The notes: generated from the sequence alone by a model not told the origin. Numbered from the stretch's first letter, positions 3 to 29,023 are shown. The stretch is DNA of 32,473 nt from Candidatus Nomurabacteria bacterium RIFCSPLOWO2_01_FULL_41_12 (GCA_001787035.1 MFUY01000011.1:1-32473), one strand, 5' to 3'. A program made the numbers and translations.

Positions 3-536
3 ACCTTAAGTGAAGATGGCACCAGTACTAACAACTCTTTCTTTGACTCTATCATCTCCATGTTCAAGAATGCTTTTGAGATTGTGTTTGAGAAGGGGCT
101 CCTGAAGGTGGCGAATATTATTACCGAGAAGCTCTCGGCCAGTGTCGGGTCGTTTAAGAAGGTGGAGTTGCAAGATGAAGATACTGGAGATGTCTATTGT
201 GTAAAGATAAAAAGCGGTCAAATATTGAGCACCCAAGGGAATTGCGAGTCTATCCAGGCAGAATCTTCTTCGGAGTCTGCTTCAGAAGAACCTACATCTG
301 AAACTACAACAGAGCCCCAGCCTACGCCAGACTCCTCTGCACAAGGCTCCGAAAGTCCAACGGAGGCTACGGCGGGCGAAGCAGAACCAGAGGTTTTTTC
401 CACGGAAGCTACAGTGGACGAGTCGGCGAGCCAACCAGCCCCCGAACCTGCACCTGAACCGGAACCCGAGCCGGAACCGGAAGTGATTCTGGAACCAGAG
501 CCTGCGCCAGAACCTACGCTAGAGGCAACTCAATAA
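3..536 (+). CDS. 3' part of a hypothetical protein with an acidic Ser/Thr/Glu/Pro low-complexity tail; the 5' end lies outside the window
   Basis: This frame is open from base 3 (TLSEDGTS... precedes the first Met at 60) and stops at TAA 534-536. The tail is GC-richer and ends PAPEPAPEPEPEPEPEVILEPEPAPEP. No catalytic motif was recognised. Confidence 0.5.
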   Translation, partial: TLSEDGTSTNNSFFDSIISMFKNAFEIVFEKGLLKVANIITEKLSASVGSFKKVELQDEDTGDVYCVKIKSGQILSTQGNCESIQAESSSESASEEPTSETTTEPQPTPDSSAQGSESPTEATAGEAEPEVFSTEATVDESASQPAPEPAPEPEPEPEPEVILEPEPAPEPTLEATQ

Positions 537-1359
537 AAAATGTTGAGCCCTTGCCTGCGCCTTCGGATTCTGCGGAGACGCGCCCTTTGTGCGCTTCTAC
601 CACTAACTTTACCGAATAAAGACCGTAACCAGTTGAGTCCACATTAACTTTGACTGATTCTTTGCCCCGCCCGCCTTCGGTAAATAAATTCTTTTTATCC
701 TCATCGGTGATGCCGATGCCAGTATCTTTAATAGAAAGGATAATTTTGTTTTCCCCACCTGCATCAGCTATGCCTGAAGCATTGCGGGCAGGTTTTGCGC
801 GCCTTAGGTCAACAATAATTTTACCCTCCTTTGTATACTTGATTGAGTTTTCAATCAAGTTGCTTACCGCTTCCTTTATCCAGAAGATGTCGCCTAGGAC
901 ATTATAAACACCTTCTTTTAAATTGCCTTCCATTGCCAGATTTTTCTTTTTTACTTCCGCATGTTTCTCTTTTAGAAGATTTTCTACCATATCTCGGAAA
1001 TCAAAAATTTTCATGTCATATTTTACTGTACCTTTTTGTAGGTTCGCGGCATTTAAAACCAAATCAATTGTTTTTATGCCTCCGTCATTTGCTTCGAGCC
1101 CCTCTTCGGCTATTTTTTTCATCTCTTCATTTGTTTCGCCAAAGGTGCCATCCAGCATTCCAGCAAAGATGTATTTTGAATGAGTGAAAGAACCCTTTAC
1201 TTTATGGGTGATAAGATGCATCAGGCTTTCCCTTTGCTTGTTCAAAGCATCGACTTCTTTATACAATCTCGCCAGTTCGAGATTTTGCTTGTACATTGCT
1301 TCCGTGACTTTTTTGTACTCTTCCGGATCAATAGGCTTATTTTCGTCGTTGGTAACCAT
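514..1359 (-). CDS. Soluble histidine kinase core (DHp plus HATPase_c) with no TM or sensor domain
   Basis: 281 aa with a coiled-coil N-terminus and an H-box-like LITHKVKGSFTHS. N box is NLIENSIKYT, G1 is IKDTGIGI, G2 is STGYGLYSVK...GSTFFIELP. It carries the 44-bp shared insert, encoding PARNASGIADAGGE. Confidence 0.8.
   Translation of the reverse strand: MVTNDENKPIDPEEYKKVTEAMYKQNLELARLYKEVDALNKQRESLMHLITHKVKGSFTHSKYIFAGMLDGTFGETNEEMKKIAEEGLEANDGGIKTIDLVLNAANLQKGTVKYDMKIFDFRDMVENLLKEKHAEVKKKNLAMEGNLKEGVYNVLGDIFWIKEAVSNLIENSIKYTKEGKIIVDLRRAKPARNASGIADAGGENKIILSIKDTGIGITDEDKKNLFTEGGRGKESVKVNVDSTGYGLYSVKLVVEAHKGRVSAESEGAGKGSTFFIELPLA
751..794 (-). repeat. 44-bp in-frame coding repeat, copy 1 (in the histidine kinase)
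   Basis: TTCCCCACCTGCATCAGCTATGCCTGAAGCATTGCGGGCAGGTT matches 24208-24251 at 41 of 44 positions. Orientation and reading frame are the same in both genes. Confidence 0.85.
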
Positions 1360-4561: not shown

Positions 4562-6118
4562 ATGTCATTTGCCAAAGTTTATTCAGCACAAGTAAATTTA
4601 TTAAAAGGAGTCATCGTGACTATAGAGGTGGACTTATCCAAGGGGCTACACACTTTTTCCGTCGTGGGTCTGCCGGATAAAGCAGTCGACGAGTCAAAGG
4701 ACAGAGTAAGCGGAGCCATAAAAAATTCTGGTTTCAAATCTCCTAAAGCCAAGAATCAAAAAATAACCGTTTCTCTTTCACCAGCTGACTTGAAAAAAGA
4801 AGGGCCGTTTTTTGATTTAGCTATTGCGATCGCTTATCTTAAGGCTGCCGGCGAAATTAAATTTAATTCAGAGAAAAAGATTTTCTTGGGTGAGCTAGGG
4901 CTCGACGGCACTCTGCGGAGCATCCGGGGAGCATTGCCACTTGCGGAAGAGGCCAAAAGGAGGGGATATCAGGAAATATATCTGCCGAGAGAAAATGCAG
5001 CTGAAGCGGCGCTCGTAGACGGCATAAAAGTTTTTGGAGCTGGCTCTTTAGAAGAAGTCATAGAACATATTGATGCCCCGACCAAAGTCGGGGTCCCGAC
5101 AAAGGTCGGGAAGAAAATTCCAGCTCAGCCGAAGACTAAGATAATTTATAAGAGGGAGATGAAAGGCGGGGACTTTGCCGATATCCGCGGGCAAGAAGGG
5201 GCGAAAAGGGGGCTGGAGATTGCGGCAGCCGGCGGGCACAATATAGCTATGTATGGTCCGCCGGGCACCGGCAAGACGATGCTGGCCCGGGTATTCTCGG
5301 GGCTGTTGCCTGATTTAAGTACTGATGAAGTCTTGGAAATAACAGGCATTCATTCCGTGGCGGGAAATGCGAGAGGCGAGCTGGTTTGCTTTCCTCCATT
5401 CCGCTCCCCGCACCATACCTCGTCTTATGTCTCTATTGTCGGTGGGGGAACATATCCCAAGCCGGGAGAAGTGACGCTCGCACATAGGGGAGTTTTATTT
5501 CTGGATGAATTTCCGGAATTTGAAAAGAGAGTGATAGAGTCTTTGCGCCAGCCACTTGAAGATAACATTGTTTCAATTTCTCGCGCCAAAGGCTCGGCGA
5601 TTTTCCCGTCTAACTTTATTTTAGTGGCGGCGATGAATCCTTGTCCTTGTGGGAATGCCGGAAGTAAACAGAAGCAATGTATCTGCAAACCCTCCGACTT
5701 GGACAGATATAAAAGAAAATTATCCGGGCCGATAATAGACAGGATTGATTTATGGCTTTCTGTCGGCAATGTAGATTATAAAAAGTTGGGAGGAGAGGGG
5801 ACGGGAGAGAGGAGTGAGAAGATAAAAGCGCGAGTAATAACAGCGCGGGAAATTCAGAAAAATAGATTTCAAAAATTAGGCCGAGATATAAGTACCAATA
5901 GCGAAATGAATGTAAAAGATTTGTCCAATATGGTAAAACTTACAAAAGAAGTCAGGGATTTGCTGGATGATAGTGCTGAACGCCTGGGTCTCTCTGCCCG
6001 CGCCTATCACCGGGTGATTAAAATCGCCCGCACCATCGCCGACTTGGAAAATTCTCCCGATGTAGGGGCGAATCATATATTAGAAGCTATTCAATATCGT
6101 CCGAAGGTTAATACGTAA
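4562..6118 (+). CDS. comM: ComM/YifB Mg-chelatase-like AAA+ ATPase
   Basis: 518 aa. Walker A is GPPGTGKT, Walker B is VLFLDEFPEF, and NPCPCGN is present. An N-terminal Lon/ChlI-like domain and a C-terminal LSARAYHRVIKIARTIADL are present. Confidence 0.85.
   Translation: MSFAKVYSAQVNLLKGVIVTIEVDLSKGLHTFSVVGLPDKAVDESKDRVSGAIKNSGFKSPKAKNQKITVSLSPADLKKEGPFFDLAIAIAYLKAAGEIKFNSEKKIFLGELGLDGTLRSIRGALPLAEEAKRRGYQEIYLPRENAAEAALVDGIKVFGAGSLEEVIEHIDAPTKVGVPTKVGKKIPAQPKTKIIYKREMKGGDFADIRGQEGAKRGLEIAAAGGHNIAMYGPPGTGKTMLARVFSGLLPDLSTDEVLEITGIHSVAGNARGELVCFPPFRSPHHTSSYVSIVGGGTYPKPGEVTLAHRGVLFLDEFPEFEKRVIESLRQPLEDNIVSISRAKGSAIFPSNFILVAAMNPCPCGNAGSKQKQCICKPSDLDRYKRKLSGPIIDRIDLWLSVGNVDYKKLGGEGTGERSEKIKARVITAREIQKNRFQKLGRDISTNSEMNVKDLSNMVKLTKEVRDLLDDSAERLGLSARAYHRVIKIARTIADLENSPDVGANHILEAIQYRPKVNT
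5076..5113 (+). repeat. In-frame 18-bp tandem duplication; each unit forms a GC hairpin
   Basis: Units CCGACCAAAGTCGGGGTC and CCGACAAAGGTCGGGAAG encode PTKVGV and PTKVGK. The hairpins are CCCCGAC-CAAA-GTCGGGG and CCCGAC-AAAG-GTCGGG. Confidence 0.8.
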
Positions 6119-6214
6119 AATAAATACTAACTAGTATATTAGCAACGGCCGTGTCTATTATACTAGTTTGCTTAATTGAGATTGCTCTAGTTCGGAGTTA
6201 TCCACAGGGGGTAT

Positions 6215-6244
6215 TTGACAAGTGAACGCTCGTTCACTTATACT
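6215..6244 (+). promoter_or_regulatory. Sigma-70-like promoter of the small-ORF/lexA operon
   Basis: TTGACA (6215-6220), an 18-nt spacer, then TATACT (6239-6244). It lies about 70 nt upstream of the ATG at 6312. Confidence 0.5.
6221..6238. promoter_or_regulatory. SOS (Cheo-type) LexA operator
   Basis: AGTGAACGCTCGTTCACT is a perfect 7-4-7 palindrome containing GAAC-N4-GTTC. It fills the spacer between the -35 and -10 elements upstream of lexA. Confidence 0.6.
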
Positions 6245-6311
6245 GGTTGGGTAGTCGAGTATTAGAAATATAAACATCCGCCTACGCTTAATAAGCTATA
6301 GCGAGACAAGT

Positions 6312-6506
6312 ATGTCACAAAAACAATATTTGAAGTTAGTAGAGAAGGAAATACAGAGAGTCAATAAGATTATTGACCAAAAGATTATCAAAGGGGAGAA
6401 TTATTGGAAAGAGGCAAAGGATCACAAGCTGCTTCTCCGTAAAATCCGCTTTCACGAACGCCGCAGTTTTTTCCGCCGGCTTTTTCCTACTTTTCTTTCA
6501 ATCTAG
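6312..6506 (+). CDS. Small basic 64-aa protein co-transcribed with lexA
   Basis: Its TAG stop is immediately followed by the lexA ATG at 6507. It lies behind the SOS-box promoter and has a hydrophobic C-terminal tail, FFRRLFPTFLSI. Confidence 0.45.
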   Translation: MSQKQYLKLVEKEIQRVNKIIDQKIIKGENYWKEAKDHKLLLRKIRFHERRSFFRRLFPTFLSI

Positions 6507-8072: not shown

Positions 8073-9203
8073 ATGACTACAACAGGAAAAGTTATTGTGT
8101 GGGGAGTGGTCGCAGTGCTTGTGATTTGGGGGATAGTTTCCATGTCCAAAAAAGACGGCACAGAATCCGAGACTATAAAAATAGGTTTCATCGGTCCCTT
8201 GACCGGAGATACGGCTAATATTGGACAAAACGCGCAAGCAGCTGTGGCCATTGCAGTTGAAGAAGTGAACAATTCAGGAGGAGTGCTCGGCAAAAAAGTG
8301 GAAGTGGTTTATGAGGATGACGGTTGCAATGGTGCAACCGCTGCCAATGCGGTGTCTAAGTTGATAAATACGGACAAAGTTGTGGCGATTTTAGGCGGGG
8401 CATGTTCCGGGGCAACGCTCGGTTCAGCGCCGATTGCGGAAGCCGCCAAGGTTGTCCAGCTATCTTACTGCTCCACCAACCCGACTATAAGTTCTGCTGG
8501 GGACTACATCTTCCGTGATGTTCCATCCGATTTGTTCCAAGCAAACTATGCGGCTGAATATCTGGTCCGAAATGGCAAAACAAAAGTGGCTTTACTGACC
8601 GTTAAGAATGACTGGGGCGATGGTTTAAACAAAGCATTTACTGATGCTCTTGCCAAAGCCGGTGGCACAATTGTCATAGCTGACTCATTTGACCCGGACG
8701 TAAAAAATTTGAAAGCTCAATTCACGAATATAAAAGCAAAAAATCCAGATGCGGTTTATTTTGTGGCTTACACCGACGCGAGCATTGCTGGCCTCAAGCA
8801 AGCGTCTGACCTCGGCATTAAGGCTCAATTTTTCGGAGCGGACGCTTGGGATGACACGAAAATTTGGAGCGAATTAGGTTCGCTTGGCAACGGCGCGATG
8901 TTCACGGTGGTCGGAACAAATTCAACCGATGCTTTTAAAGCAAAAATGAAGGTCAAGCTTGGCAAAGATGATTTAATCTACTGTTCTAACTATGCTTATG
9001 ATGGGTTGAAAGTAATTGCCGAAGCGATAAAACTTGCCAGGAGAGCTACCGGTCCGGCCATCAAGGATGCGTTATATAAAGTAAAGTACACCGGCGGAGT
9101 TTCAGCTAAAGAGCTTATGTTTGACAAGAATGGCGACCCGACTTCCGCCGCTTATGTCATAAAAGTGGCGAAAGACGGGAAACTCTCTGAATTGGCACAA
9201 TAG
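8073..9203 (+). CDS. livK: Branched-chain amino-acid ABC transporter substrate-binding protein (LivK/Peripla_BP_6-like), anchored by an N-terminal TM helix
   Basis: 376 aa. IKIGFIGPLTGDTANIGQ and the family-typical layout are present. It is the first gene in the K-H-M-G-F order. Confidence 0.75.
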   Translation: MTTTGKVIVWGVVAVLVIWGIVSMSKKDGTESETIKIGFIGPLTGDTANIGQNAQAAVAIAVEEVNNSGGVLGKKVEVVYEDDGCNGATAANAVSKLINTDKVVAILGGACSGATLGSAPIAEAAKVVQLSYCSTNPTISSAGDYIFRDVPSDLFQANYAAEYLVRNGKTKVALLTVKNDWGDGLNKAFTDALAKAGGTIVIADSFDPDVKNLKAQFTNIKAKNPDAVYFVAYTDASIAGLKQASDLGIKAQFFGADAWDDTKIWSELGSLGNGAMFTVVGTNSTDAFKAKMKVKLGKDDLIYCSNYAYDGLKVIAEAIKLARRATGPAIKDALYKVKYTGGVSAKELMFDKNGDPTSAAYVIKVAKDGKLSELAQ

Positions 9204-9213
9204 TTATAATTAG

Positions 9214-9327
9214 AAAAATCGTCGTAATAACTTTTCGCGGGGTTTTGAGCGCGACGGCGCGAGAACTTCAGGATTTTTTAAGCTTCAAAAAATTCGTACC
9301 GAAGAAAAGTTTATTACGACAATTTTT
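9214..9327 (+). repeat. Nested palindromic intergenic element, copy A (62-nt core at 9239-9300)
   Basis: The core is GGGGTTTTGAGCGCGACGGCGCGAGAACTTCAGGATTTTTTAAGCTTCAAAAAATTCGTACC. Copy-specific arms are 9214-9236 and 9304-9327, with one bulge and one mismatch. Confidence 0.85.
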
Positions 9328-9341
9328 GTTATACTTAACGT

Positions 9342-10205
9342 ATGATATTCTGGCAACTGACTCTCTATGCAATCTCTGTTGGGATGTTTTTTTCTGTACT
9401 TGCTATGGGCTGGGGACTCATTTTACGCAGCGCAAAGTTTTTTAATTTGGCTTATGGTGGAGCATTTCTGGTGGGAGGGTATATGATGTTTTTATTTTAC
9501 CGCATGTGGAACGTGCATTTCGTCTTTTCCATCTTACTTAGTCTTTTCGGGTCAGGTTTGTATATGCTACTTTCTTATAAATTTATATTTAGCGTACTTC
9601 TCCGCCGCAAAGCGAAAAGCTTGATTCTGCTTATCGCCTCCTTCGGGCTTCTGACCGCTACATCCGCAATTCTTGGCATGATTTTCGGCAATCAATCCAC
9701 TCTTATCGCGCGTCATCTAAGCGATATTTACACAGTAAATGTATTTGGAGCGGTGCTCAATTTGGCTCAGGTCGTCGCTATTGTTTTTGTTCCTGTATTA
9801 ATATTTGTTTTTGCATATATTCGTTCTTCTACGCGTTTTGGGAGAGCGATGAGAGCAATAGAAGATGATAGTGAAGTAGCCGAGTTGGTAGGGATTCCAA
9901 AAGACAAGACTCTTTTACAAATTTTCTTTATTTCCGGGACGTTAGCGGGCTTGGGCGGAATAGCGGAAGGATTTGATCTTGGGCTTATTCCGACTTCCGG
10001 ACTTATAATTATCCTTCCGACAATTGTGGCTACTGTGGTCGGGGGGATGCAAAGTTTTTGGGGCGGAATCCTCGGCGCTTTTATTCTGGCTATAGCTCAG
10101 CAATTAACAATAGTTTTCTTTGGCGGAAGCTGGGTGCAAGCGGTGCCGTTTGTTATTCTTATCATTATGCTTCTTCTACGTCCGCAGGGAATACTTAAAA
10201 GATAA
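9342..10205 (+). CDS. livH: Branched-chain amino-acid ABC transporter permease
   Basis: 287 aa polytopic protein, LivH-like, in the canonical operon position. Confidence 0.8.
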   Translation: MIFWQLTLYAISVGMFFSVLAMGWGLILRSAKFFNLAYGGAFLVGGYMMFLFYRMWNVHFVFSILLSLFGSGLYMLLSYKFIFSVLLRRKAKSLILLIASFGLLTATSAILGMIFGNQSTLIARHLSDIYTVNVFGAVLNLAQVVAIVFVPVLIFVFAYIRSSTRFGRAMRAIEDDSEVAELVGIPKDKTLLQIFFISGTLAGLGGIAEGFDLGLIPTSGLIIILPTIVATVVGGMQSFWGGILGAFILAIAQQLTIVFFGGSWVQAVPFVILIIMLLLRPQGILKR

Positions 10206-10210
10206 CCTGT

Positions 10211-10277
10211 CCCGTACTAAATTTTTGATTACAAAAAATGACCATTATAAGTAAAAACTTAAAATTTTAGTACCGGG
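10211..10277. repeat. Long intercistronic hairpin; possible degenerate relative of the nested element
   Basis: CCCGTACTAAATTTTT (10211-10226) pairs with AAAATTTTAGTACCGGG (10261-10277). GTAC..ATTTTTGA..AAAAAAT weakly resembles the core arm. The 3' arm abuts the livM ATG. Confidence 0.35.
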
Positions 10278-11144
10278 ATGGAATATATTTTTCACATTTT
10301 AATACTTGTATCCATCTACGGCATTTTGGCTCTGGCGCAAAATTTAGTAATGGGCGGAGCGGGCTTGCTGACGATTGCCGGAGCCGCTTTTTACGGGATT
10401 GGCGCATACGCGGCGGCAATTCTGGCTACAAAATTCGGCTTTAATATTTTTACCACATTGATAATTGCGCCGCTAGTTGCGGGTCTGATTGCGCTAATGG
10501 TCGGGAGCACTTTTGCGCGCTTTCGGGACGATTATTTCATGCTGGCGACTCTCGGGTTTTTGATGATATTCAATACCGTAGTGCGGAATTGGGAGAGTTT
10601 TACTGGTGGGTCTTACGGTATAGCCGGAATTCCGAAACCGCACGTCTTTGGTTTTGTTTTTGATACGCCTCTTTCTTTTGTTTTTCTCGCAGTTGTTGTC
10701 CTTCTTATAGTTACAGCTATAACTTATTTTATTTCCCGCTCATCATTCGGCCGGGTGCTGAATGCTATTCGCGAAGACGAAGACGCACTTGCTATTTTCG
10801 GCTACAAAACGTCAACTTACAAATTAATGGCTTTTTCTATCGGAGCGGCTTTAACTGCATGGGGCGGCGTGCTTTTTGCAAGCTATCTTACTTTTATTGA
10901 CTCAAGGCTATTTACGGTAAATGAATCTATCCTTCTTTGGGCGATGATTATTTTAGGAGGAATCGCGAGAAATCGTGGAGCCTTGCTCGGAGCTTTTCTT
11001 TTAATAACAGTTCCCGAAGCATTGCGGTTTATTGGTTTTCCAGTGGACTTTGCCGCGTTGCTACGGCAATGTATATATGGGCTGCTACTTGTTTTCTTAA
11101 TGTTATATCGTCCGAAAGGAATTTTAGGGAAATATAAATTATGA
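10278..11144 (+). CDS. livM: Branched-chain amino-acid ABC transporter permease
   Basis: 288 aa polytopic protein, LivM-like, in the canonical position. Confidence 0.8.
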   Translation: MEYIFHILILVSIYGILALAQNLVMGGAGLLTIAGAAFYGIGAYAAAILATKFGFNIFTTLIIAPLVAGLIALMVGSTFARFRDDYFMLATLGFLMIFNTVVRNWESFTGGSYGIAGIPKPHVFGFVFDTPLSFVFLAVVVLLIVTAITYFISRSSFGRVLNAIREDEDALAIFGYKTSTYKLMAFSIGAALTAWGGVLFASYLTFIDSRLFTVNESILLWAMIILGGIARNRGALLGAFLLITVPEALRFIGFPVDFAALLRQCIYGLLLVFLMLYRPKGILGKYKL

Positions 11145-11150
11145 TAAATA

Positions 11151-11885
11151 ATGAAAAATATTATTAAAACAAAACAATTAGTAAAACATTTCGGCGGGGT
11201 AAGTGCCGTAGACCACCTTTCTATTACTATCCCAAAAGGGCAAATTACCGGACTAGTAGGTCCAAATGGCAGTGGCAAGACAACGCTCATTAATTTGCTA
11301 TCCGGCTTTTTTTCTCACGATAAAGGCGCGATATTATTCTCCGATACCGAGAGAAGAAAAATTCTTCCTTGGGAAAACAAAATTTATAATATTACCCGCA
11401 CTTTTCAGCAAATCAGGCTTTTTGACCAAATGACTGTGCTAGACAATATGTTGGTAGTTTTAACCGAACGCAATCCATTTTGGTCTTTATTTGAAAAGCA
11501 TAATAAGTATCACATAAAGCAGGCGGAAGATATCCTGGGGCACTTGGGTTTATATGAAAAAAGATTTCATAATGCCGGTGATTTGTCATACGGCCAGAGA
11601 AAACTTTTGGAAATTGGACGGGTACTCTCTATGGATGCGGACACAATTCTTTTTGACGAACCTTTTGCCGGGCTTTTTCCTGAAATGATTAAGCAGATTG
11701 AGGGAATTATTAAAGAATTAAAACAAAAAGGGAAGACAATAGTTCTTGTTGAGCACAACATGGCGATTATCCGGTCTTTGTGCGATTATGTCATTGTGAT
11801 GGATGCCGGCAAAATGCTTGCCGAAGGCAGTCCGGAAAAAGTATTATCAGAGAAAATTGTTTTAGAAGCGTATTTAGGAGAGTAG
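11151..11885 (+). CDS. livG: ABC transporter ATP-binding protein, LivG type
   Basis: Walker A GPNGSGKTT, signature LSYGQRKLLEIGR, Walker B ILFDEP. Confidence 0.85.
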   Translation: MKNIIKTKQLVKHFGGVSAVDHLSITIPKGQITGLVGPNGSGKTTLINLLSGFFSHDKGAILFSDTERRKILPWENKIYNITRTFQQIRLFDQMTVLDNMLVVLTERNPFWSLFEKHNKYHIKQAEDILGHLGLYEKRFHNAGDLSYGQRKLLEIGRVLSMDADTILFDEPFAGLFPEMIKQIEGIIKELKQKGKTIVLVEHNMAIIRSLCDYVIVMDAGKMLAEGSPEKVLSEKIVLEAYLGE

Positions 11886-11892
11886 AATTATG

Positions 11893-12017
11893 ATAAATTT
11901 ATGAATACAAACTTTCCTTTGGTACGGATTTTTCAATAAACGGTTAGTCTTAAAAAATTCTGAAGTTCAGAGCTCGCCAGCCTCGAAACCCCGCGGAAAG
12001 CTTTATTAAAAATTTAT
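11893..12017 (-). repeat. Nested palindromic intergenic element, copy B (diverged and inverted)
   Basis: The core at 11921-11992 retains GGTACGGATTTTT...AAAAAATTCTGAAGTT...AAACCCC with extra loop sequence. Arms are 11893-11917 and 11995-12017, with about 21 of 25 positions paired. The 3' arm covers the first two bases of the livF ATG. Confidence 0.7.
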
Positions 12018-12729
12018 GAAACCATTACTAGAATTAAAAAATATTTCAGCCGGATATGGAGAGCAGAAAATCATACACGATATTTCGCTTTTTATAAATG
12101 GGGGTGAAATCGTGGCATTAATGGGCCCGAATGGAGCAGGAAAATCCACGATTTTAAAAGCAATTTTTGGCTTAATATCCCATACTGGCGCTTTATTTTA
12201 TCAAGAAGAGAAAATTATTCCAACGCCCTCTCAAATTGTGAAAATGGGAGTGGCTTTTGTGCCTCAAGGCAGGCGAGTGTTTAATAATCTGACAGTGGAA
12301 GAAAATCTGGAAATTGGCGGGTTTTCTTTGAATGATGAAGAAGAATGCAGAAGGAGAGCCAAACATCTTATGCATCTTTTTCCTGCACTTCATGCTAAAA
12401 AAGATGCTTATGCCGGGACGCTCTCCGGTGGGCAGCAGCAGCTTCTTTCTATTGCCCGCGGACTGATGATGCAGCCGAAACTTCTCTTGCTTGATGAGCC
12501 CACGCTTGGCCTCTCGCCGAAAGTTGTGAAGGAAATTTTCCAAACCATCAAAGATATCAATAAAAATCAAAAAACAGCCATTCTCATCGTGGAGCACAAT
12601 CTTCATTCTCTTTTGCCGATTACTGATCGCGCGTATGTCCTTGCTCATGGCAAAATCGTTGTCTCCGACACCGGTCCAAATATCGCCAAGAGTGATATCC
12701 TTGAGCGGGTTTTTATGGGGAAGATATAA
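12016..12729 (+). CDS. livF: ABC transporter ATP-binding protein, LivF type
   Basis: Walker A GPNGAGKST, signature LSGGQQQLLSIAR, Walker B LLLDEP. Confidence 0.85.
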   Translation: MKPLLELKNISAGYGEQKIIHDISLFINGGEIVALMGPNGAGKSTILKAIFGLISHTGALFYQEEKIIPTPSQIVKMGVAFVPQGRRVFNNLTVEENLEIGGFSLNDEEECRRRAKHLMHLFPALHAKKDAYAGTLSGGQQQLLSIARGLMMQPKLLLLDEPTLGLSPKVVKEIFQTIKDINKNQKTAILIVEHNLHSLLPITDRAYVLAHGKIVVSDTGPNIAKSDILERVFMGKI

Positions 12730-12736
12730 AAATTAA

Positions 12737-12849
12737 AAAAATAATAAATATAAATTTTTTTAGGTACGGATTTTTTGAAGCTTAAAAAATCCTGAAGTTT
12801 TCACGCCGTCGCGTTCAAAACCCCTAAAAAACTTATATTTATTATTTTT
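12737..12849 (-). repeat. Nested palindromic intergenic element, copy C (inverted)
   Basis: The core at 12763-12824 matches the reverse complement of copy D at 58 of 62 positions. The A/T-only arms are 12737-12762 and 12825-12849. Confidence 0.85.
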
Positions 12850-12850
12850 C

Positions 12851-12890
12851 AGGAAAACAAAAATCCCCATAAAGGGATTTTTGTTTTCCT
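12851..12890. terminator. Bidirectional hairpin between the convergent livF and hup genes
   Basis: AGGAAAACAAAAATCCC and GGGATTTTTGTTTTCCT form a 17-bp perfect stem with a 6-nt loop. The arms are U-rich. Confidence 0.55.
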
Positions 12891-12931
12891 ACATTTCTCT
12901 CGAGAGAACCCGCCAAAGGACGGGCAGGAAT

Positions 12932-13204
12932 TTACGCAACTGTGTCTTTCAAACCTTTTGCCGGTCGGAATTTCGGAACTCTCTTTGCAGCCACTTTGAC
13001 TTGCGCTCCAGTCTTTGGATTGCGGGCCATTCTGGCAGCTCTTTGCTTTACGGAAAAGATTCCGAAGCCAGCGATTGATACTTCGCCGCCCTTTTTCAAG
13101 GTCTGGACGATAGCATCAAACAATCCGTCTACGACTTCTTCAGCCTGCACTTTGGTACCACCGAGTTTTCCGTGTACCCAGTCAGCCAATGCTTGTTTGT
13201 TCAT
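12932..13204 (-). CDS. hup: HU-family DNA-binding protein
   Basis: 90 aa. MNKQALADWV..., GFGIFSVKQRAARMARNPKTG and PKFRPAKGLKD are present. Confidence 0.9.
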   Translation of the reverse strand: MNKQALADWVHGKLGGTKVQAEEVVDGLFDAIVQTLKKGGEVSIAGFGIFSVKQRAARMARNPKTGAQVKVAAKRVPKFRPAKGLKDTVA

Positions 13205-13250
13205 ATTTTTAAAAGTTATTTTTATAATTCTTTCGACCTTGCCCGCCTGC

Positions 13251-13271
13251 TTACCCGCCCTAGGCGGGTAA
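13251..13271 (-). other. GC hairpin upstream of hup
   Basis: TTACCCGCC-CTA-GGCGGGTAA forms a 9-bp stem. There is no U-tract in the direction of transcription. Confidence 0.3.
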
Positions 13272-13336
13272 AGAGGGCTAATTACCTATATAAATCAATA
13301 CCTACCTATTATATATCAAGGGTTTTTTAAGGGCAA

Positions 13337-13473
13337 GCCCCCACACTTATCTTTGGTATTATCCTGCTTTTTCAATAAAATTATTACTTTTACCTATATT
13401 TCCTGTAAAAAACCAGTTTATTAAAAGATTTATTTAGCAGAATAAAAAGCTATACCAAAATAAGTGTGGGGGC
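13337..13473 (-). other. Long-range ~23-bp inverted repeat just downstream of the membrane-protein gene
   Basis: GCCCCCACACTTATCTTTGGTAT (13337-13359) pairs with ATACCAAAATAAGTGTGGGGGC (13452-13473) with one bulge. It encloses 92 AT-rich nt. Confidence 0.4.
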
Positions 13474-13480
13474 AAGTCCT

Positions 13481-14398
13481 TTACCAGACCACTTCTTTGG
13501 AAGGGAATAAAGCCCGAAGCATTGATAAAAACACCGGAAATTGAAGTGGCCATAAAAACATAGCCACAACAGGCACATTTAATATGCGAATATTGTCGTA
13601 TGGCCAGTTGGCGAAAACCCACACCTGGAAAGGTCCGTTTAAAAATTCAATTGAAACAATAGCGATAATATTCGCAATTGTTATAAAAATAATCGGCCAA
13701 AAATTACCTGACAAAATGTCGTGAGTTAAGGTCTGCTTGTTTTGTTTGAAGCATATGTATTCAAAAATGAAGAAAGTGGCAATGAAAACCAAGATGATTA
13801 TATAGAATCCAGAAAAGGGCACTTCTCCTTTTTGATTGATTATAAAAGACGAGAGAGATGGATTGGCCAAAAATCTTAGAGCATAGTTGATGCTTAAAAG
13901 ATAGCCAATAATGCCAAGGACAAGTTCGCTATTCATTATCATCTCATAAAACTGTTTCTTGACATAATGCCCCAGATTGATCTTTCTGTGATTTGTCACT
14001 AGATCTTTTGCAAACTCATATAAGATAAAAAGGAGGAGAGTATATGCGCCGAACGCAAATGGCGCTATCGCTAAATAAATTTTCAATGACCAAAATGGGT
14101 AATACCAAAGTCTAGCCACAAATACGCCAAAGCCGTCCAAAAGAACGCAGAAAAGTAAAGATACTACACTAATAATAAAGAGTTTTCTCCCTCTCCATAT
14201 TGTGTCGGGGATAACGCTATGAGAGAAATATTTTCTTTCAAAAAAATCAAACAAGCATATAAGCCCAGCCCAGCTGATGCCTAAAGGCAGAACGACAAAC
14301 CAATTATAGCTGCCTAAAAAGATAGTCATCCATAAGGCGGAGAAAAATAAGATGAAAATACCTAACGAAAATTCATGATGCGTGATAAATTTCCACAT
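13481..14398 (-). CDS. Polytopic membrane protein, function unknown
   Basis: 305 aa with about 8 hydrophobic helices. It lies 5 nt downstream of rny. Confidence 0.55.
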   Translation of the reverse strand: MWKFITHHEFSLGIFILFFSALWMTIFLGSYNWFVVLPLGISWAGLICLFDFFERKYFSHSVIPDTIWRGRKLFIISVVSLLFCVLLDGFGVFVARLWYYPFWSLKIYLAIAPFAFGAYTLLLFILYEFAKDLVTNHRKINLGHYVKKQFYEMIMNSELVLGIIGYLLSINYALRFLANPSLSSFIINQKGEVPFSGFYIIILVFIATFFIFEYICFKQNKQTLTHDILSGNFWPIIFITIANIIAIVSIEFLNGPFQVWVFANWPYDNIRILNVPVVAMFLWPLQFPVFLSMLRALFPSKEVVW

Positions 14399-23295: not shown

Positions 23296-24510
23296 TTACT
23301 CTTCTTTTTTTTCAATCACTTCTTCAGTTTCCGTAGAGACCACTTCTTTGCCGTCGCCCTTGATGTCTATCCTCCACCCAGTCAGCTTGGCCGCTAGGCG
23401 CACGTTTTGTCCACCCTTGCCGATAGCCAGCGATAATTGATCATTGGCTACTTCTACCGTGGCTTTGTGGTCCTTTTCATCCACTTCAATTGCAACGACT
23501 TTTGCCGGAGAAATGGCATTGGCAACAAAGATTTTCGGATCCGAAGACCAGGGAATAATATCGATTTTCTCGCCACCTAGCTCTCCGGTCACGGTGTTTA
23601 CCCGCGTGCCTTTCTGCCCGACGCATGAGCCGACTGGGTCTATGTGCTCGTCGTTTGAAAATACCGCTATCTTGGAACGGGCGCCGGCTTCCCGGGCTAC
23701 AGATTTTATCTCAACGATTCCATTTTGAATTTCCGGCGCTTCCACAGCAAAAAGCTTTTCTATGAATTTCGGATGCGTGCGGGAAAGGCGTAAATTAATG
23801 CCCCTTGGCGTGTCTTCCACGGAATAGAGATATGCTCGCACGCGAGCCCCTCTCTGGAAAGATTCCCCGGGAATTTGCTCTTCGGCGGACAGGATGCCTG
23901 TGGCGCGATTGAAATCAACATAGACATTTCCTCTTTCAACTTTCTGCACTATTCCCCCGATGATTTCTCCTTCTTTTGTCCCATATTCATCAATGATAGA
24001 CGTGCGTTCAGCCTCGCGGATTTTCTGTATTATGACCTGCTTGGCGGTCTGGGCGGCGATGCGTCCGTAATCTTCTTTTGCCTCTAATGGGAAAATAACT
24101 TCATCATTTAATTCCACCCCTTTTTTTATTTTCTTTGCATCTTCCAGCATCAGGTGATGTTCCGGATTGAAGTGCACTCGTTCGTCTTCTATATCTTTTA
24201 CAGAATATTCCCCGCCTGCATCAGCTATGCCGAAAGCATTGCGGGCAGGTTGCTCATTTTCCTTACCTTTATTTTTATCCCCATCTAAGATTGCGATAGT
24301 TTCATCAACCACGATTTTTACTTGGAAAAATTCCGTTTTGCCGGTCTCCAGGTCGAATTTAGCCCGGATAATTTGCCCTTTTTTGCCGTAATCCTTTTTA
24401 TAAGCGGCCGCCATTGCTTGCTCTATAGCGTCTAATATTTTTTCTTTTGGAATTTTCCTTTCTTCTTCGAGCTGTTCCAGGGCTGACTTGAACGTCTTTA
24501 GGTCTAACAT
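23296..24510 (-). CDS. nusA: Transcription termination/antitermination factor NusA
   Basis: NTD, an S1-like GGIVQKVERGNVYVDF, and KH motifs VGQKGTRV and AIGKGGQNVRLA. It carries the 44-bp shared insert, encoding PARNAFGIADAGGE. Confidence 0.9.
   Translation of the reverse strand: MLDLKTFKSALEQLEEERKIPKEKILDAIEQAMAAAYKKDYGKKGQIIRAKFDLETGKTEFFQVKIVVDETIAILDGDKNKGKENEQPARNAFGIADAGGEYSVKDIEDERVHFNPEHHLMLEDAKKIKKGVELNDEVIFPLEAKEDYGRIAAQTAKQVIIQKIREAERTSIIDEYGTKEGEIIGGIVQKVERGNVYVDFNRATGILSAEEQIPGESFQRGARVRAYLYSVEDTPRGINLRLSRTHPKFIEKLFAVEAPEIQNGIVEIKSVAREAGARSKIAVFSNDEHIDPVGSCVGQKGTRVNTVTGELGGEKIDIIPWSSDPKIFVANAISPAKVVAIEVDEKDHKATVEVANDQLSLAIGKGGQNVRLAAKLTGWRIDIKGDGKEVVSTETEEVIEKKEE
24208..24251 (-). 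repeat. 44-bp in-frame coding repeat, copy 2 (in nusA)
   Basis: TTCCCCGCCTGCATCAGCTATGCCGAAAGCATTGCGGGCAGGTT matches 751-794 at 41 of 44 positions. Confidence 0.85.
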
Positions 24511-24591: not shown

Positions 24592-26001
24592 ATGGAAACG
24601 CAATACTTGCGAAAAATTTGGGAAACAAATACCCATTCATTCTTAGTTCTGCTCGTTGTGTCGGGGTGTATTTTTTATTATGGCTATTTTACAAATCCTA
24701 TGGTTAAAAATGGAATGATCACAGTTATTATAAATGACAAAGGATTTTCTCCAGAAAAAATTATTGTTCCTCAAGGTACAACAGTGAAGTGGGTTAATCA
24801 AGATGAGCGTCCACATTGGCCGGCTTCCAATTTCCATCCGACTCATAGTCTCTACCCGGAGCAGGGCGGCTGTATTGGAAGTCTGTTTGATGCTTGCCGG
24901 AGTCTTAAAGAGGGAGAATATTACTCTTTCAAATTTGACATTGCCGGTATTTGGCCAGTGCATGATCACCTTTCTCCGGGGATGATTATGGTGATAGAGG
25001 TTGTTGACCCCGTTAAAAGTGCTCGCGACGGAGTCGCGAGTTTAAAAGACCGCAGCGCGGCTACTTCTAACGGGGTAACTGCTGCTGAATTCCGCCAGCT
25101 TGATTATGGCAAACAAATGGAAATCATTAAATCCATGGCAACTAGTAATCCGAATAAAGCATGGGGTTATCTCAAGAATAGCTACATAGTTGACGGCCAG
25201 GTAGTCGGCAATGCCCATGAGTTTGCCCACATTGTCGGTAATCTTGCATTTGAAAAATTCAGCTTGGATGGGATAAAAGTTTGCGACGCAACATTTGCTT
25301 TTGGCTGTTTTCATGGAGTTACGGAAAAGATGCTTTTAAGTGAAGGCCTGGGGGTTATTAAGTCTATAGAAAATGGATGTTTAGAAATTTTCCCGCCGGA
25401 TAAATCGCAGGATTATACCAGCTGTATTCACGGGACGGGCCATGGGGTGTATAGTTTTGAAGGAGGGGACATGAAGGAGGCTCTTATTGATTGTGATATT
25501 ATCAGCGAACCCTACAGGCAGTATTGCTATGACGGGGTATTTATGGAACGTTCTTCCCAGCCGGATGCTAAAATATTTGACAATAAAAATCCATGGAAAT
25601 TTTGTACCGATCTTCCCGAGCGTTATCATCGCAATTGCGCCAGATATCAGAGCCAGATTTTCTTAGGCGCATTTGGCTCGCTGGGTTCCGTCAAAGCAGT
25701 CGGCAAAAATTGCGCTCTCGGATCGTCAGTATTGCTGCGAGAAACATGCTATGAAAGTCTTGGTTATTATATAGCTCAGCAATCTCTTGGAAAAATGTCA
25801 GAAATTTTAGAAAGTTGTAAACAAATGCCCAATACCGACGGACAGTCAGAGGGGGGAGAGATATGCATGATGGGTGGAGCAATTGAAAGTGTTTTTCAGA
25901 AATATCTTGATTTTCGGGACACTTCCTATAGGCTATGTAATAGCTTAACCGAGCTAAGGCGAGTATTATGTTTTAACAATATAGAAAGGATGCTTAAATG
26001 A
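24592..26001 (+). CDS. Membrane-anchored protein with a cupredoxin-like domain and one Cys/His-rich module (paralogue P1)
   Basis: TM helix, then a beta-rich segment ITVIINDKGFSPEKIIVPQGTTVKWVNQDERPHW...WPVHDHLSPGMIMVIEV. The module has HEFAH, CFHG, CIHGTGHG and CYDGVFME. The start is either ATG 24592 or GTG 24571. Confidence 0.65.
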   Translation: METQYLRKIWETNTHSFLVLLVVSGCIFYYGYFTNPMVKNGMITVIINDKGFSPEKIIVPQGTTVKWVNQDERPHWPASNFHPTHSLYPEQGGCIGSLFDACRSLKEGEYYSFKFDIAGIWPVHDHLSPGMIMVIEVVDPVKSARDGVASLKDRSAATSNGVTAAEFRQLDYGKQMEIIKSMATSNPNKAWGYLKNSYIVDGQVVGNAHEFAHIVGNLAFEKFSLDGIKVCDATFAFGCFHGVTEKMLLSEGLGVIKSIENGCLEIFPPDKSQDYTSCIHGTGHGVYSFEGGDMKEALIDCDIISEPYRQYCYDGVFMERSSQPDAKIFDNKNPWKFCTDLPERYHRNCARYQSQIFLGAFGSLGSVKAVGKNCALGSSVLLRETCYESLGYYIAQQSLGKMSEILESCKQMPNTDGQSEGGEICMMGGAIESVFQKYLDFRDTSYRLCNSLTELRRVLCFNNIERMLK

Positions 26002-28335: not shown

Positions 28336-28343
28336 TAAATTAT

Positions 28344-28459
28344 AAAATTCTTGAAACATAATTTTTCGCAGGGTTTTGAGCGCGACGGCGCGAGAACTTC
28401 AGGATTTTTTAAGCTTCAAAAAATCCGTACCAAAGAGAAATTGATGTTTTTAGAATTTT
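28344..28459 (+). repeat. Nested palindromic intergenic element, copy D
   Basis: The core at 28370-28431 matches copy A at 60 of 62 positions. Copy-specific imperfect arms are 28344-28367 and 28435-28459. It lies between convergent genes. Confidence 0.85.
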
Positions 28460-28460
28460 G

Positions 28461-28961
28461 TTATTCCTCGGCTACTGGCACGATCTGCCACTTACCTCCA
28501 CCCAAGCCGTTGCCATTTACGTCGCCGGGAATTTTGTCTCCTATGTAATAATACACCGGCTGTATGCCATAAGCATATTGGCGCGTTCCATCGCTCCTTT
28601 TAGCGGCGTTTAACTTTTTATCCAGAGGATTGGTCATAGTTGCAAAGTTTTGCGTAGTGTCCCACATAAATGGAGGCCAATTTTTTACACAATCCCCGGC
28701 ACAAGTACTCTTGAGCCTTTCATCATCTTTAAATGCATAGAGTGTCATCCCTTCTGAGTCTGTCAGATATACTCCAAGTTTTTCACTTTTTACATAACCG
28801 ACAACCTTACCAGCCACTAAATTAAGACCAGGCACCTCATCTTCGTCTATGGTCGCACTACCCCCATTTTGTACTCTCGGTGTTTTGTTTAAGAAAAATA
28901 TTAATCCCCCAATTAACACTAAAACTATTACAAACGCACTAATTATATTTTTATTTTCCAT
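28461..28961 (-). CDS. Secreted or membrane-anchored COG4315 / Lipoprotein_15-repeat protein
   Basis: TM helix, then LTDSEGMTLYAFKDD...CAGDCVKNWPPF and GIQPVYYYIGDKIPGDVNGNG..GKW. The ATG at 28961 is preferred over 29030, which would overlap the divergent promoter. Confidence 0.65.
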   Translation of the reverse strand: MENKNIISAFVIVLVLIGGLIFFLNKTPRVQNGGSATIDEDEVPGLNLVAGKVVGYVKSEKLGVYLTDSEGMTLYAFKDDERLKSTCAGDCVKNWPPFMWDTTQNFATMTNPLDKKLNAAKRSDGTRQYAYGIQPVYYYIGDKIPGDVNGNGLGGGKWQIVPVAEE

Positions 28962-29023
28962 ACCTATATAATAACGCTTTTTTGATTTTTTGCAGACATA
29001 ACACTGTGGATAACTCCCCTTGA

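What the first reader, a model, noticed from the sequence alone, without database searches (positions are those of the whole stretch)
9214..12849. Conserved two-hairpin core nested inside copy-specific ~24-bp inverted repeats (the reverse of a MITE)
A 62-nt core occurs four times in this window. The core sequence is GGGGTTTTGAGCGCGACGGCGCGAGAACTTCAGGATTTTTTAAGCTTCAAAAAATCCGTACC. It lies at 9239-9300 and 28370-28431 in one orientation (60 of 62 identical). It lies at 12763-12824 in the other orientation (58 of 62 to copy D). A diverged copy with extra loop sequence lies at 11921-11992. The core holds two hairpins, GCGC-GACG-GCGC and GGATTTTTT-AAGCTTC-AAAAAATCC. Every copy is bracketed by a 23-25 bp inverted repeat of roughly constant length. 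The sequence of that repeat is unrelated between copies: mixed sequence in A, pure A/T in C, and different again in B and D. Transposon-derived MITEs show the opposite pattern, with conserved termini and variable interiors. Copy C differs from A and D at both partners of one pair of the first hairpin (G:C becomes A:T, in the register with loop GACG), which looks compensatory. Three copies and one possible relic (10211-10277) occupy the liv intercistronic gaps K-H, H-M, G-F and the region after F. I see three explanations. The core may insert into the apex of pre-existing hairpins. The element may generate an inverted duplication of its target on insertion. Or it may be a structured RNA whose closing helix covaries, for example an RNase III processing site or a REP/BIME-like mRNA stabiliser.
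Basis: seen in the sequence. Interest (0 to 1): 0.8.

Follow-up and report, generated by a model that had tools for sequence, protein, structure and literature searches.

The report
Structured mobile hairpin repeat of Patescibacteria
The four repeats are copies of a small mobile DNA element (about 115-145 bp) that is widespread in Patescibacteria and absent from Rfam; its long inverted-repeat arms travel with it, and its centre is an unusually well conserved three-way-junction fold that a typical mobile element of this kind would not keep.

Summary
In detail: three near-identical cores, one diverged core, two hairpins, and a long inverted repeat around every copy.

The claim that the flanking repeats are unrelated between copies does not hold. 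With more than 100 further copies from Patescibacteria (Paceibacteria-type) MAGs, the arms prove to be diverged homologues that belong to the element.

A clean filled/empty pair (L054 versus L210 and L211) shows a 142-nt unit, arms included, inserted with an 8-bp direct target duplication (TTGTATAC). This rules out insertion into the apex of pre-existing hairpins, and it rules out inverted duplication of the target. The element is MITE-like.

What is unusual is the centre:
- It is a three-way junction (P1 arms, P2, P3) with strong covariation.
- P2 carries a tandem G.A motif.
- G.U greatly outnumbers A.C on one strand, whatever the direction of the neighbouring genes.

Copies at one orthologous site in five species keep the core and keep the arms paired, while the arm sequence, the orientation and the surrounding spacer all change.

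No match was found in Rfam 15, in viral contigs or in the searchable literature. No transposase partner was found.

The function is inferred, not shown. The likely host effect is a REP/ERIC-like RNA hairpin at gene ends. The core is kept by selection for an unknown strand-specific role.

The parts
9207..9334 (+). Copy A, whole element. Left arm TAATTAGAAAAATCGTCGTAATAACTTTTCGCG, core, right arm GAAGAAAAGTTTATTACGACAATTTTTGTTATAC. It lies between livK and livH.
   Evidence: The RNA fold pairs 9205-9333, z = -5.15. The inverted repeat is reported (I12). The arms are homologous to the GAATTACGAAACTC...GAGTTTCGTAATTC termini. The CM scores 92.6 bits.
9239..9300 (+). Core of copy A (three-way junction). 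P2 is 9244-9252 paired with 9257-9265, with loop GACG at 9253-9256 and tandem G.A at 9247-9248/9261-9262. P3 is 9271-9279 paired with 9287-9295, with loop AAGCTTC at 9280-9286.
   Evidence: Pattern match. Pair counts on 101 copies. RNAalifold predicts the same junction.
11893..12019 (-). Copy B, a diverged subfamily. P2 lacks the tandem G.A and P3 is longer. It lies between livG and livF, antisense to the operon, and its arm reaches the livF start codon.
   Evidence: The CM scores 60.4 bits. The same core subtype occurs in L085 and in the livK-H gap of L136. The fold is weak, z = -1.6.
12735..12851 (-). Copy C, whole element with A/T-only arms (12737-12760 and 12826-12849) and core 12763-12824. 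It lies between livF and the canonical terminator of the convergent livF and HU genes.
   Evidence: I9 (24 nt, 96% complementary). Fold z = -7.2. CM 100.6 bits. The orthologous sites in L136 and L144 are empty and show no trace of the arms.
28337..28466 (+). Copy D, whole element with arms AAATTATAAAATTCTTGAAACATAATTTTTCGC and AAAGAGAAATTGATGTTTTTAGAATTTTGTTATTC and core 28370-28431. It lies between convergent genes 25998-28259(+) and 28461-29030(-).
   Evidence: z = -5.0. CM 86.3 bits. The right terminus matches GAGTTTCGTAATTC within 3 mismatches.

Best explanation
The four copies belong to a large, old family of non-autonomous (MITE-like) mobile DNA elements of Patescibacteria, about 115-145 bp long.

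Shown:
- The unit that moves is the whole hairpin: terminal inverted repeats, arms and core.
- It inserts with an 8-bp direct target-site duplication.
- The element folds, on the GGGG...GTACC strand, into a three-way junction. P1 is formed by the arms, P2 carries a tandem G.A and a GACG-type loop, and P3 is the A/U hairpin.
- This fold is kept by compensatory change. The junction and P3 sequences are almost invariant, while the arm sequence drifts.

Inferred:
- Most copies are old and immobile. Their target duplications have decayed, yet the arms stay paired and the core stays intact. Selection therefore acts in place on the fold.
- For the host, the element most likely acts as a long RNA hairpin at gene 3' ends and between cistrons, as REP, ERIC or Correia repeats do. 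That would mean 3'-end protection, partial termination or a processing site.
- In the livK-livH gap it sits where relatives carry an ordinary small terminator-like hairpin.
- The core is probably recognised as a single strand, either RNA made from the element strand or single-stranded DNA. The partner is unknown: the mobilising enzyme or a host protein.
- Orientation can flip in place, by recombination between the element's own arms.
For: Family and distribution:
106 of the matches carry the full core, almost all in MAGs labelled Patescibacteria, Paceibacterota, Nomurabacteria and the like.
- The CM found about 17 further copies in 715 kb.

The arms belong to the element:
- Identical 35-40-nt arms occur at three unrelated loci of one MAG (L020, L054 twice) and in other MAGs.

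Insertion with a target duplication:
- L054, upstream of a Fic gene, carries a 142-nt element (5816-5957) flanked by GTATACAA and ATATACAA. The same promoter region in L210 and L211 has one TTGTATAC and no element.
- 6-8 of 8 matching direct repeats at the same offsets occur in L020, L054b, L109, L111 and the L060 variant.
- Window copy C is absent, arms included, from the orthologous livF-HU gap of L136 and L144.

Structure:
- 82.5% of cells are paired against 72.1% in shuffles. 405 double-change cells are seen against 175 in shuffles. None of 500 shuffles reaches the observed values, and slid registers drop to 32-57% paired.
- Example pair: columns 23/40 read CG 45, UA 40, GC 10.
- RNAalifold gives the same junction.
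- CM-only copies show compensatory changes in P3 as well.

Strand specificity:
- G.U versus A.C is 44:5 in the core and 65:18 in P1. G.A cells number 200 against 0 U.C.
- The bias also holds in copies antisense to both neighbouring genes, 20:9.

Selection in place:
- Family-wide, the TSD signal equals background, yet 35-nt flanks form 24 pairs against 12 for mismatched partners.
- Five species carry the element at the same site upstream of HU, in both orientations. The core is invariant apart from compensatory P2 changes, and the outer arms differ but stay paired (CCTCTG/TGGAGG versus ATCTTA/TAAGAT).

Position:
- The arms begin within a few nt of stop codons. Copies are enriched between convergent genes (34) and rare between divergent genes (7).
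- Seven relatives have a small aaaaaaGGCC-loop-GGCCtttttt hairpin in the livK-H gap where the window and L136 have the element.
Against: - No autonomous element or transposase with the same termini was found in the window or in the fetched loci. The MITE label therefore rests on TIRs, the TSD and copy number.
- The TSD is demonstrated in only one subfamily. About 90% of copies have neither recognisable termini nor a TSD.
- The RNA-hairpin role is an analogy. No transcript data were available.
- In tandem gene contexts the well-folding strand is antisense to the mRNA in 40 of 54 cases. A purely cis-acting mRNA element would not be expected to do that.
- The near-invariance of J2/3 and the 5' half of P3 is partly an artefact of ascertainment, because the exact 19-mer was used for the scan.
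- G.U and covariation counts are per sequence, not per event, and related copies inflate them.
- At the livK-H site, L136 has arms like copy A but a core like copy B in the opposite orientation. That needs either a second insertion or gene conversion.
Confidence: 0.7

Rival explanations
1. The core is a small RNA gene in its own right. It would be transcribed from the element strand whatever the neighbouring genes do, closed by P1, and would act in trans, for example as a protein-binding or catalytic RNA. The MITE-like hairpin would be only its vehicle.
For: - Folding selection follows the element's own strand even when both neighbours are on the other strand.
- Junction and P3 nucleotides are nearly invariant, and P2 keeps a tandem G.A that shifts register but not identity.
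- Distant relatives keep the three-way architecture with a different P3 sequence.
- The fold is conserved at an orthologous site in both orientations.
Against: - No conserved promoter was found. The arms abut stop codons, which leaves no room outside the element. The best -10-like word in the arm (CATAAC/TATAAC) lacks the invariant last T and is missing from the GAATTAC subfamily (reading).
- Helices of 25-40 bp that are nearly perfect are typical of TIRs rather than of small RNAs.
- No Rfam family matches.
- No expression data were available.
Confidence: 0.2
2. One reading: a roughly 62-90-nt core is the mobile unit and inserts into the apex of pre-existing hairpins such as terminators, so the arms are host sequence.
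For: - In the livK-H gap, relatives have a small hairpin with A and T runs at the place where the window and L136 have the element.
- L136 combines arms like copy A with a core like copy B.
- Extra hairpin modules do occur inside the P3 loop and in J2/3 of some copies.
Against: - Empty sites in L210, L211, L136 and L144 have no hairpin or arm sequence at the insertion point.
- Identical arms occur at unrelated loci.
- The GC-rich stems of the relatives' hairpins are not retained outside the arms in the filled livK-H sites.
Confidence: 0.03
3. One reading: insertion generates an inverted duplication of the target, which creates copy-specific arms.
For: Arm length is roughly constant (median 26-27 nt) and the outer arm sequence looks copy-specific in the four window copies.
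Against: - The duplication seen at the demonstrated insertion is direct, 8 bp long, and lies outside the arms.
- The arms are homologous between copies at different loci and in different genomes.
- The target sequence of the empty site does not reappear inverted in the arms.
Confidence: 0.02
4. A REP/REPIN-like element that is handled as single-stranded DNA by a Y1 (HUH) transposase of the RAYT or IS200/IS605 type.
For: - The fold is strand-specific and independent of transcription direction.
- The copies are intergenic and lie after stop codons.
- Orientation is regionally biased, and the element strand has a weak residual GC skew.
Against: - Elements mobilised by Y1 transposases make no target duplication and have no terminal inverted repeats (established knowledge). 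Here an 8-bp TSD and TIRs are present.
- There is no GTAG-type conserved REP head.
- No Y1 transposase gene was seen in the window.
- The element strand tends to lie on the C-rich strand, antisense to most genes. That is the opposite of the lagging-strand-template preference known for IS608 (inference).
Confidence: 0.05

Closest known systems
Bacterial MITEs that form RNA hairpins, e.g. Correia/NEMIS elements of Neisseria
   Same: Small, non-coding and multi-copy, with terminal inverted repeats and a direct target-site duplication. They are intergenic and co-transcribed with neighbouring genes as a long hairpin, occur in both orientations, and have internal variants.
   Different: The TSD is 8 bp here, against TA for Correia (from memory). 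No parent insertion sequence is known. The centre is a three-way junction that is better conserved than the termini across a class-level clade, with covariation on one strand. The host group is Patescibacteria.
ERIC/IRU repeats of enterobacteria and vibrios
   Same: An imperfect palindrome of about 125 bp, conserved across genera and most strongly in the centre. It is found in transcribed intergenic regions in either orientation, and long variants arise by insertions at fixed internal sites. This parallels the extra hairpins in the P3 loop and J2/3. Compensatory evolution of the hairpin has been described for ERIC (from memory: Wilson and Sharp 2006; De Gregorio et al. 2005).
   Different: The sequence is unrelated. 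The apex here is branched (two hairpins) rather than a simple hairpin. An 8-bp TSD is demonstrated here. The phylum differs.
REP/BIME/REPIN elements with RAYT transposases
   Same: Extragenic palindromes placed just after stop codons and between cistrons of ABC-transporter operons. REPs in malE-malF and hisJ-hisQ stabilise the upstream mRNA (established knowledge). The livK-livH position of copy A is the direct analogue.
   Different: In REPINs the arms are conserved and the spacer varies, there is no TSD, and mobilisation is by a Y1 transposase. Here there is a TSD, there are TIRs, the centre is the conserved part, and no RAYT gene was found.
Intrinsic (bidirectional) transcription terminators
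   Same: A hairpin directly after stop codons, often with an A-rich 5' side and a T-rich 3' side, and enriched between convergent genes. It takes the place of a canonical small hairpin in the livK-H gap.
   Different: The A and T runs are mostly paired inside P1 rather than forming a free U tract. The stem is A/T-rich and 25-40 bp long around a 63-nt branched apex. Copy C sits beside an intact canonical terminator at 12851-12890, so it is not needed there as the terminator.

Membership tests
MITE (miniature inverted-repeat transposable element) | Small (under about 500 bp) and without coding capacity | tested here: met
   Elements are 115-145 nt. No copy lies inside a long ORF, and none of the 107 copies carries one.
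MITE (miniature inverted-repeat transposable element) | Terminal inverted repeats | tested here: met
   The termini are CTTTGAATTACGAAACTC...GAGTTT(C/T)GTAATTCA(T/C)G in L020, L054 and L078, with related forms in L109, L107, L111, L099 and window copies A and D. All 107 copies have complementary flanks.
MITE (miniature inverted-repeat transposable element) | Direct target-site duplication, shown by comparing a filled site with an empty one | tested here: met
   L054 5808-5815 reads GTATACAA and 5958-5965 reads ATATACAA around a 142-nt element. L210 and L211 have a single TTGTATAC. Matches of 6-8 of 8 occur in five more copies. The signal is not detectable family-wide.
MITE (miniature inverted-repeat transposable element) | Many dispersed copies per genome | tested here: met
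   There are 4 copies in the 32.5-kb window, several loci per MAG, and about 17 extra copies in 715 kb of flanking sequence.
MITE (miniature inverted-repeat transposable element) | A related autonomous insertion sequence with the same termini that supplies the transposase | tested here: inconclusive
   No terminus-like sequence occurs away from a core in any fetched locus. No transposase domain was found among the window proteins. Whole genomes could not be searched.
REP/REPIN-RAYT | No target duplication, a conserved REP head (GTAG-type), and an associated Y1 transposase | tested here: not met
   An 8-bp TSD is present. The conserved part is the centre, not the arm ends. No Y1 transposase is present in the window.
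Any curated RNA family (Rfam 15, including hammerhead, twister, pistol, hatchet, SRP, 6S, Y RNA) | A match to the family covariance model at its gathering score | tested here: not met
   There are no matches at gathering score in the window. With E up to 10 over 9000-13600, only chance long-hairpin (miRNA-type) hits appear, and none falls on the core. ARAGORN finds no tRNA or tmRNA.
Intrinsic terminator | A G+C-rich stem of 5-20 bp, a short loop, and an unpaired U tract immediately 3' of the stem | tested here: inconclusive
   The consensus scan finds only the canonical hairpin 12851-12890 beside copy C, not the elements. The T-rich segment at +25..+28 is mostly paired with the A-rich -22..-28 segment. 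Termination activity cannot be tested with these tools.

The most novel reading that the evidence does not exclude
The three-way-junction core may be a functional single-stranded module carried by a mobile hairpin. It could be a new class of protein-binding or catalytic RNA expressed from the element strand. Or it could be a structure that the element needs as a strand-specific single-stranded intermediate (DNA or RNA) for its own mobilisation. That would be a structure-dependent way of moving a TIR/TSD element that has not been described in bacteria. The evidence that leaves this open:
- Folding selection on one strand is independent of host transcription.
- J2/3 and P3 are almost invariant.
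- The tandem G.A is conserved.
- The fold is conserved in place while target duplications have decayed.
Probability: 0.25. Interest if true: 0.8.

Novelty: new variant of a known kind. Interest (0 to 1): 0.55.

Why it matters
- Patescibacteria (CPR) have tiny genomes that are thought to carry little mobile or repetitive DNA. Almost nothing is known about their non-coding RNA or their signals at transcript ends.
- This repeat occupies a sizeable share of their scarce intergenic space, with four copies in 32 kb here. It is conserved across many candidate orders.
- It gives a ready-made covariance model for annotating these genomes.
- Whether the core is an RNA, a transposition structure or a protein-binding site can be tested directly.
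- The element is a compact natural example of a closing helix that evolves by compensatory change while its apex is frozen.
- It also warns against inferring the mechanism of a repeat from the few copies seen in one window.

Tried and rejected
- **Rfam.** Searches at gathering score and at E up to 10 gave nothing on the elements.
- **tRNA/tmRNA scan.** Nothing found.
- **Hammerhead reading of P2, by eye.** The GA...GA flanking a short helix resembles the hammerhead core. I rejected it because there is no CUGA box, the position that would be A14 is G in about half the copies and covaries with column 23, and the strands flanking the G.A pairs pair with each other.
- **K-turn reading.** Rejected because there is no 3-nt bulge.
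- **Pseudoknot between the P2 loop and J3/1, or GGGG with CUUC.** No covariation supports either, and neither is conserved in distant relatives.
- **Family-wide TSD search.** Two methods both gave background levels. The TSD is visible only in the young GAATTAC subfamily.
- **Search for an autonomous partner through the terminus motif in all fetched loci.** Only elements were found.
- **Viral contigs.** No match to the core 23-mer.
- **Strain polymorphism.** 15 contigs carry the identical LivM protein, and the 10 places shown have the same spacing around liv.
- **Internal sigma-70 promoter in the arms.** No convincing conserved -10/-35 pair (reading).
- **Mutational strand bias as the cause of G.U exceeding A.C.** Rejected because the bias does not reverse with gene orientation, and the element strand lies mostly on the C-rich strand.
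- **A first regular expression for termini.** It found nothing because it was too strict.
- **Literature searches.** Most timed out. The three that ran found no description of such an element.

Full report
**1. The observation**

The quoted 62-mer matches 9239-9300(+), 28370-28431(+) and 12763-12824(-) with 1, 1 and 3 mismatches. No match is expected by chance. A covariance model built later also recovers the diverged copy at 11907-12006(-), and finds nothing else in the window.

The surrounding genes are livK, H, M, G and F, followed by a convergent HU gene. The rest of the window is ordinary chromosome and holds no transposase: NusA, trigger factor, H+-pyrophosphatase, RNase Y, ClpP and others.

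Each copy folds into a long stem that closes two hairpins. The z-scores are -5 to -7 for A, C and D and -1.6 for B.

The one part of the observation that fails is the claim that the flanking repeats are unrelated between copies:
- A and D share 88 nt at 92% identity, which reaches 12-14 nt into both arms.
- A or D aligns with C over 99-106 nt at 80-83% (D3, I1, I2).

**2. The family**

I scanned one genome per species for AACTTCAGRATTTTTTAAG. 106 matches carry the full core. Nearly all are in MAGs labelled Patescibacteria, Paceibacterota, Nomura-, Yanofsky- or Yonathbacteria, or (by automated pipelines) Saccharibacteria. The matches in other phyla lack the rest of the core and are chance hits.

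- All 107 copies analysed have complementary flanks. They form 24 pairs on average in 35 nt at -28.8 kcal/mol, against 12 pairs and -14.1 kcal/mol when left and right flanks of different copies are combined.
- Conservation extends beyond the 62-mer, with TTTT at -6..-3 and AAAA at +4..+7, and then falls off outward.
- The model R1 found about 17 further copies in 715 kb around the seeds.
- Rfam 15 has no match at gathering score or at E up to 10.
- Viral contigs hold no copy.
- The three literature searches that completed found no description.

**3. The structure**

I used an ungapped alignment of 101 copies (A1) and a three-way junction with three helices. P1 is formed by the arms plus GG/CC. 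P2 is columns 21-29 paired with 34-42. P3 is columns 48-56 paired with 64-72.

| Measure | Observed | Control |
|---|---|---|
| Cells that form a pair | 82.5% | 72.1% in shuffles; 32-57% in slid registers |
| Cells with a change on both sides | 405 | 175 in shuffles |
| Shuffles reaching the observed values | 0 of 500 | |

- P2 covaries heavily. Columns 23/40 read CG 45, UA 40, GC 10. Columns 27/36 read GC 39, CG 36. Columns 28/35 read GC 51, CG 42, UA 6, AU 2. Columns 29/34 read CG 55, UA 43.
- P2 contains a tandem 5'-GA/5'-GA mismatch. It sits in one of two registers (24-25/38-39 or 26-27/36-37) but is always G.A.
- RNAalifold predicts the same junction independently.
- J2/3 and the 5' half of P3 look invariant partly because the scan pattern fixed them. 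Copies found only by the model show compensatory changes in P3: U-A to C-G in L006, A-U to G-C in L014, G-C to A-U in L085.
- Those copies also carry extra hairpins inserted in the P3 loop or in J2/3.
- Distant relatives have the same architecture and the same P2 motif but a different P3 sequence.

**4. Which strand folds**

On the GGGG...GTACC strand, G.U cells outnumber A.C cells 44:5 in the core and 65:18 at P1 positions flanked by Watson-Crick pairs. There are 200 G.A cells and no U.C cells. The whole element is more stable on this strand in nearly every copy.

The bias does not follow host transcription. In the 40 copies whose two neighbours are both on the other strand it is still 20:9.

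These counts are per sequence, not per event, so they overstate the number of independent changes.

**5. The arms belong to the element, and it inserts with a direct 8-bp duplication**

- One Nomurabacteria MAG carries the same arms at three unrelated loci, L020 and L054 twice. The arms read (C)TTTGAATTACGAAACTCGTCGAAGGCATGTCTTTTTTA-core-CTAGAAAAAGACATGCCTAGAAAGAGTTTCGTAATTCA. Other MAGs carry close variants.
- Even elements with a different P3 have these termini.
- Window copies A (TAATTAGAAAAATCGTCG...ATTTTTGTTATAC) and D (AAATTATAAAATTC...GAATTTTGTTATTC) are recognisable, decayed homologues.
- Just outside the termini, at fixed offsets, lie 8-bp direct repeats. They match 8/8 in L020, 7/8 in both L054 copies and in L109, and 6/8 in L111 and the L060 variant. 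L078 and L107 show none.

The decisive test is a filled/empty pair upstream of a Fic gene. Homologues of the L054 Fic protein led to L210 and L211, whose promoter regions align with L054 on both sides. The empty sites read CTTTGTATACATTC. L054 reads CTTTGTATAT | CATGAATTAC ... 142 nt ... AATTCAAAG | TTGTATAC ATTA.

So the arms arrive with the core, the target is duplicated directly, and no hairpin pre-exists at the site.

In the window itself, copy C is absent, arms included, from the orthologous livF-HU gap of L136 and L144. The canonical terminator shared by all of them stays intact beside C at 12851-12890.

Only the autonomous partner is missing.

**6. Evidence that the fold is maintained in place**

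- Family-wide, direct repeats outside the arms are no more frequent than in controls, and only about 9 of 107 copies keep recognisable termini. Most copies are therefore old. Their arms nevertheless remain paired and their cores intact.
- At one orthologous site, between the HU promoter region and the 3' end of the next gene, five species carry the element within a few nucleotides of the same position. Two have it in one orientation and three in the other.
- Aligned in element orientation, these five share AAATATAACTTTT-core-AAAAGTTYATATTTT. Their P2 helices differ by compensatory changes (GAGCGC/GCGCGA, GCGAGC/GCGAGC, GAGCAC/GTGTGA). Their outer arms differ but stay complementary. The spacers around them cannot be aligned.
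- The simplest reading is one old insertion, purifying selection on the fold, and inversion in place through the element's own inverted arms.
- The same orientation contrast is seen at livK-H (window +, L136 -) and livF-HU (window -, L133/L134 +).
- The L136 livK-H copy combines arms like A with a core like B. That needs a second insertion or a conversion from another copy, and it remains unexplained.

**7. Context and likely host effect (inferred)**

- The arms start within a few nucleotides of stop codons. The core lies a median 25-30 nt from the stop, and the arms are a median 26-27 nt long.
- Of the copies with both neighbours called, 34 lie between convergent genes, 54 between tandem genes and 7 between divergent genes.
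- In tandem contexts, 40 of 54 copies have the well-folding strand antisense to the mRNA.
- Copies within one 8-kb locus mostly share orientation.
- The element strand tends to lie opposite to most genes and on the C-rich strand. The residual after allowing for coding balance is small, -0.013 +/- 0.005.
- In seven relatives the livK-livH gap holds a small hairpin with A and T runs. The window and L136 have the element there instead. This is the position at which REP sequences act in enterobacterial binding-protein operons (established knowledge).
- I therefore infer a REP/ERIC/Correia-like role as an RNA hairpin at 3' ends and between cistrons. It is an analogy and has not been tested.
- What recognises the frozen J2/3-P3 part and the G.A motif is unknown. 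The strand-specific selection points to an own transcript or a single-stranded intermediate.

**8. Verdict**

The element is a new, widespread, structured MITE-like repeat of Patescibacteria.
- I found no prior description. That rests on Rfam 15 and a literature tool that mostly timed out, so it is a weak negative.

Noticed in passing
window 751-794 and 24208-24251: A 44-nt segment, 93% identical between the two places, lies in frame inside two unrelated genes. One is a histidine-kinase-like ORF (514-1359, minus strand, aa 189-203). The other is NusA (23296-24510, minus strand, aa 87-101). Both encode (K/Q)PARNA(S/F)GIADAGGE. The segment has its own short inverted repeat (CCTGC...GCAGG). It resembles the in-frame palindromic insertions (RPE) of Rickettsia (D7, 54, 68).
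   Followed up: partly
Its termini are like GTCCCGTACTAAATTTT...AAAATTTTAGTACCGGGA, or TCCCGTTAGAGAT...ATCTCTAACGGGA in relatives. It abuts the ATG of the downstream gene, has variable interiors, and is absent from the same gap in most relatives.
   Followed up: partly
window 13329-13353 / 13457-13481: A 25-nt inverted repeat (84% complementary) with a 103-nt spacer lies between HU and the next gene. L136 has the same repeat with a different, shorter interior. At this very site five other species carry the three-way-junction element instead (I20, 29, 48).
   Followed up: partly
L028 3107-3228, L054 6267-6378, L066 987-1097, L133 2877-3002; L066 11-127 and 3666-3783: Some copies carry an extra G+C-rich hairpin inserted at a fixed point, either in the P3 loop (between AAG and CTTC) or in J2/3 (after AACTTC). 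The additions are modular, like the long variants of ERIC.
   Followed up: no
L054 5816-5957 and about 6241-6395, around tRNA-Ile 6084-6158; L020 next to a tRNA 3' end: Two same-orientation copies with identical arms flank a tRNA-Ile gene, and a third copy of the same subfamily lies just downstream of another tRNA. The young subfamily may prefer the neighbourhood of tRNA genes, or the two copies may form a composite.
   Followed up: no
L019, upstream of HU: A partial copy (one arm plus GGTACGGATTT) is directly followed by a complete copy. This is either a nested insertion or a partial tandem duplication at the orthologous site.
   Followed up: no
L054 4629-5780 and homologues P0001-P0120: The Fic-family gene next to the young insertion is 80-92% identical across very different lineages (Patescibacteria, Dojkabacteria, KSB1, Sphingobacteriia labels), and its neighbouring genes differ. 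It therefore appears to be horizontally mobile. Its promoter region holds several GTATAC palindromes, one of which was the insertion target.
   Followed up: no
window 12851-12890: A canonical bidirectional terminator for the convergent livF and HU genes (17-bp stem) is conserved in position in all relatives. It stays intact next to element copy C.
   Followed up: yes
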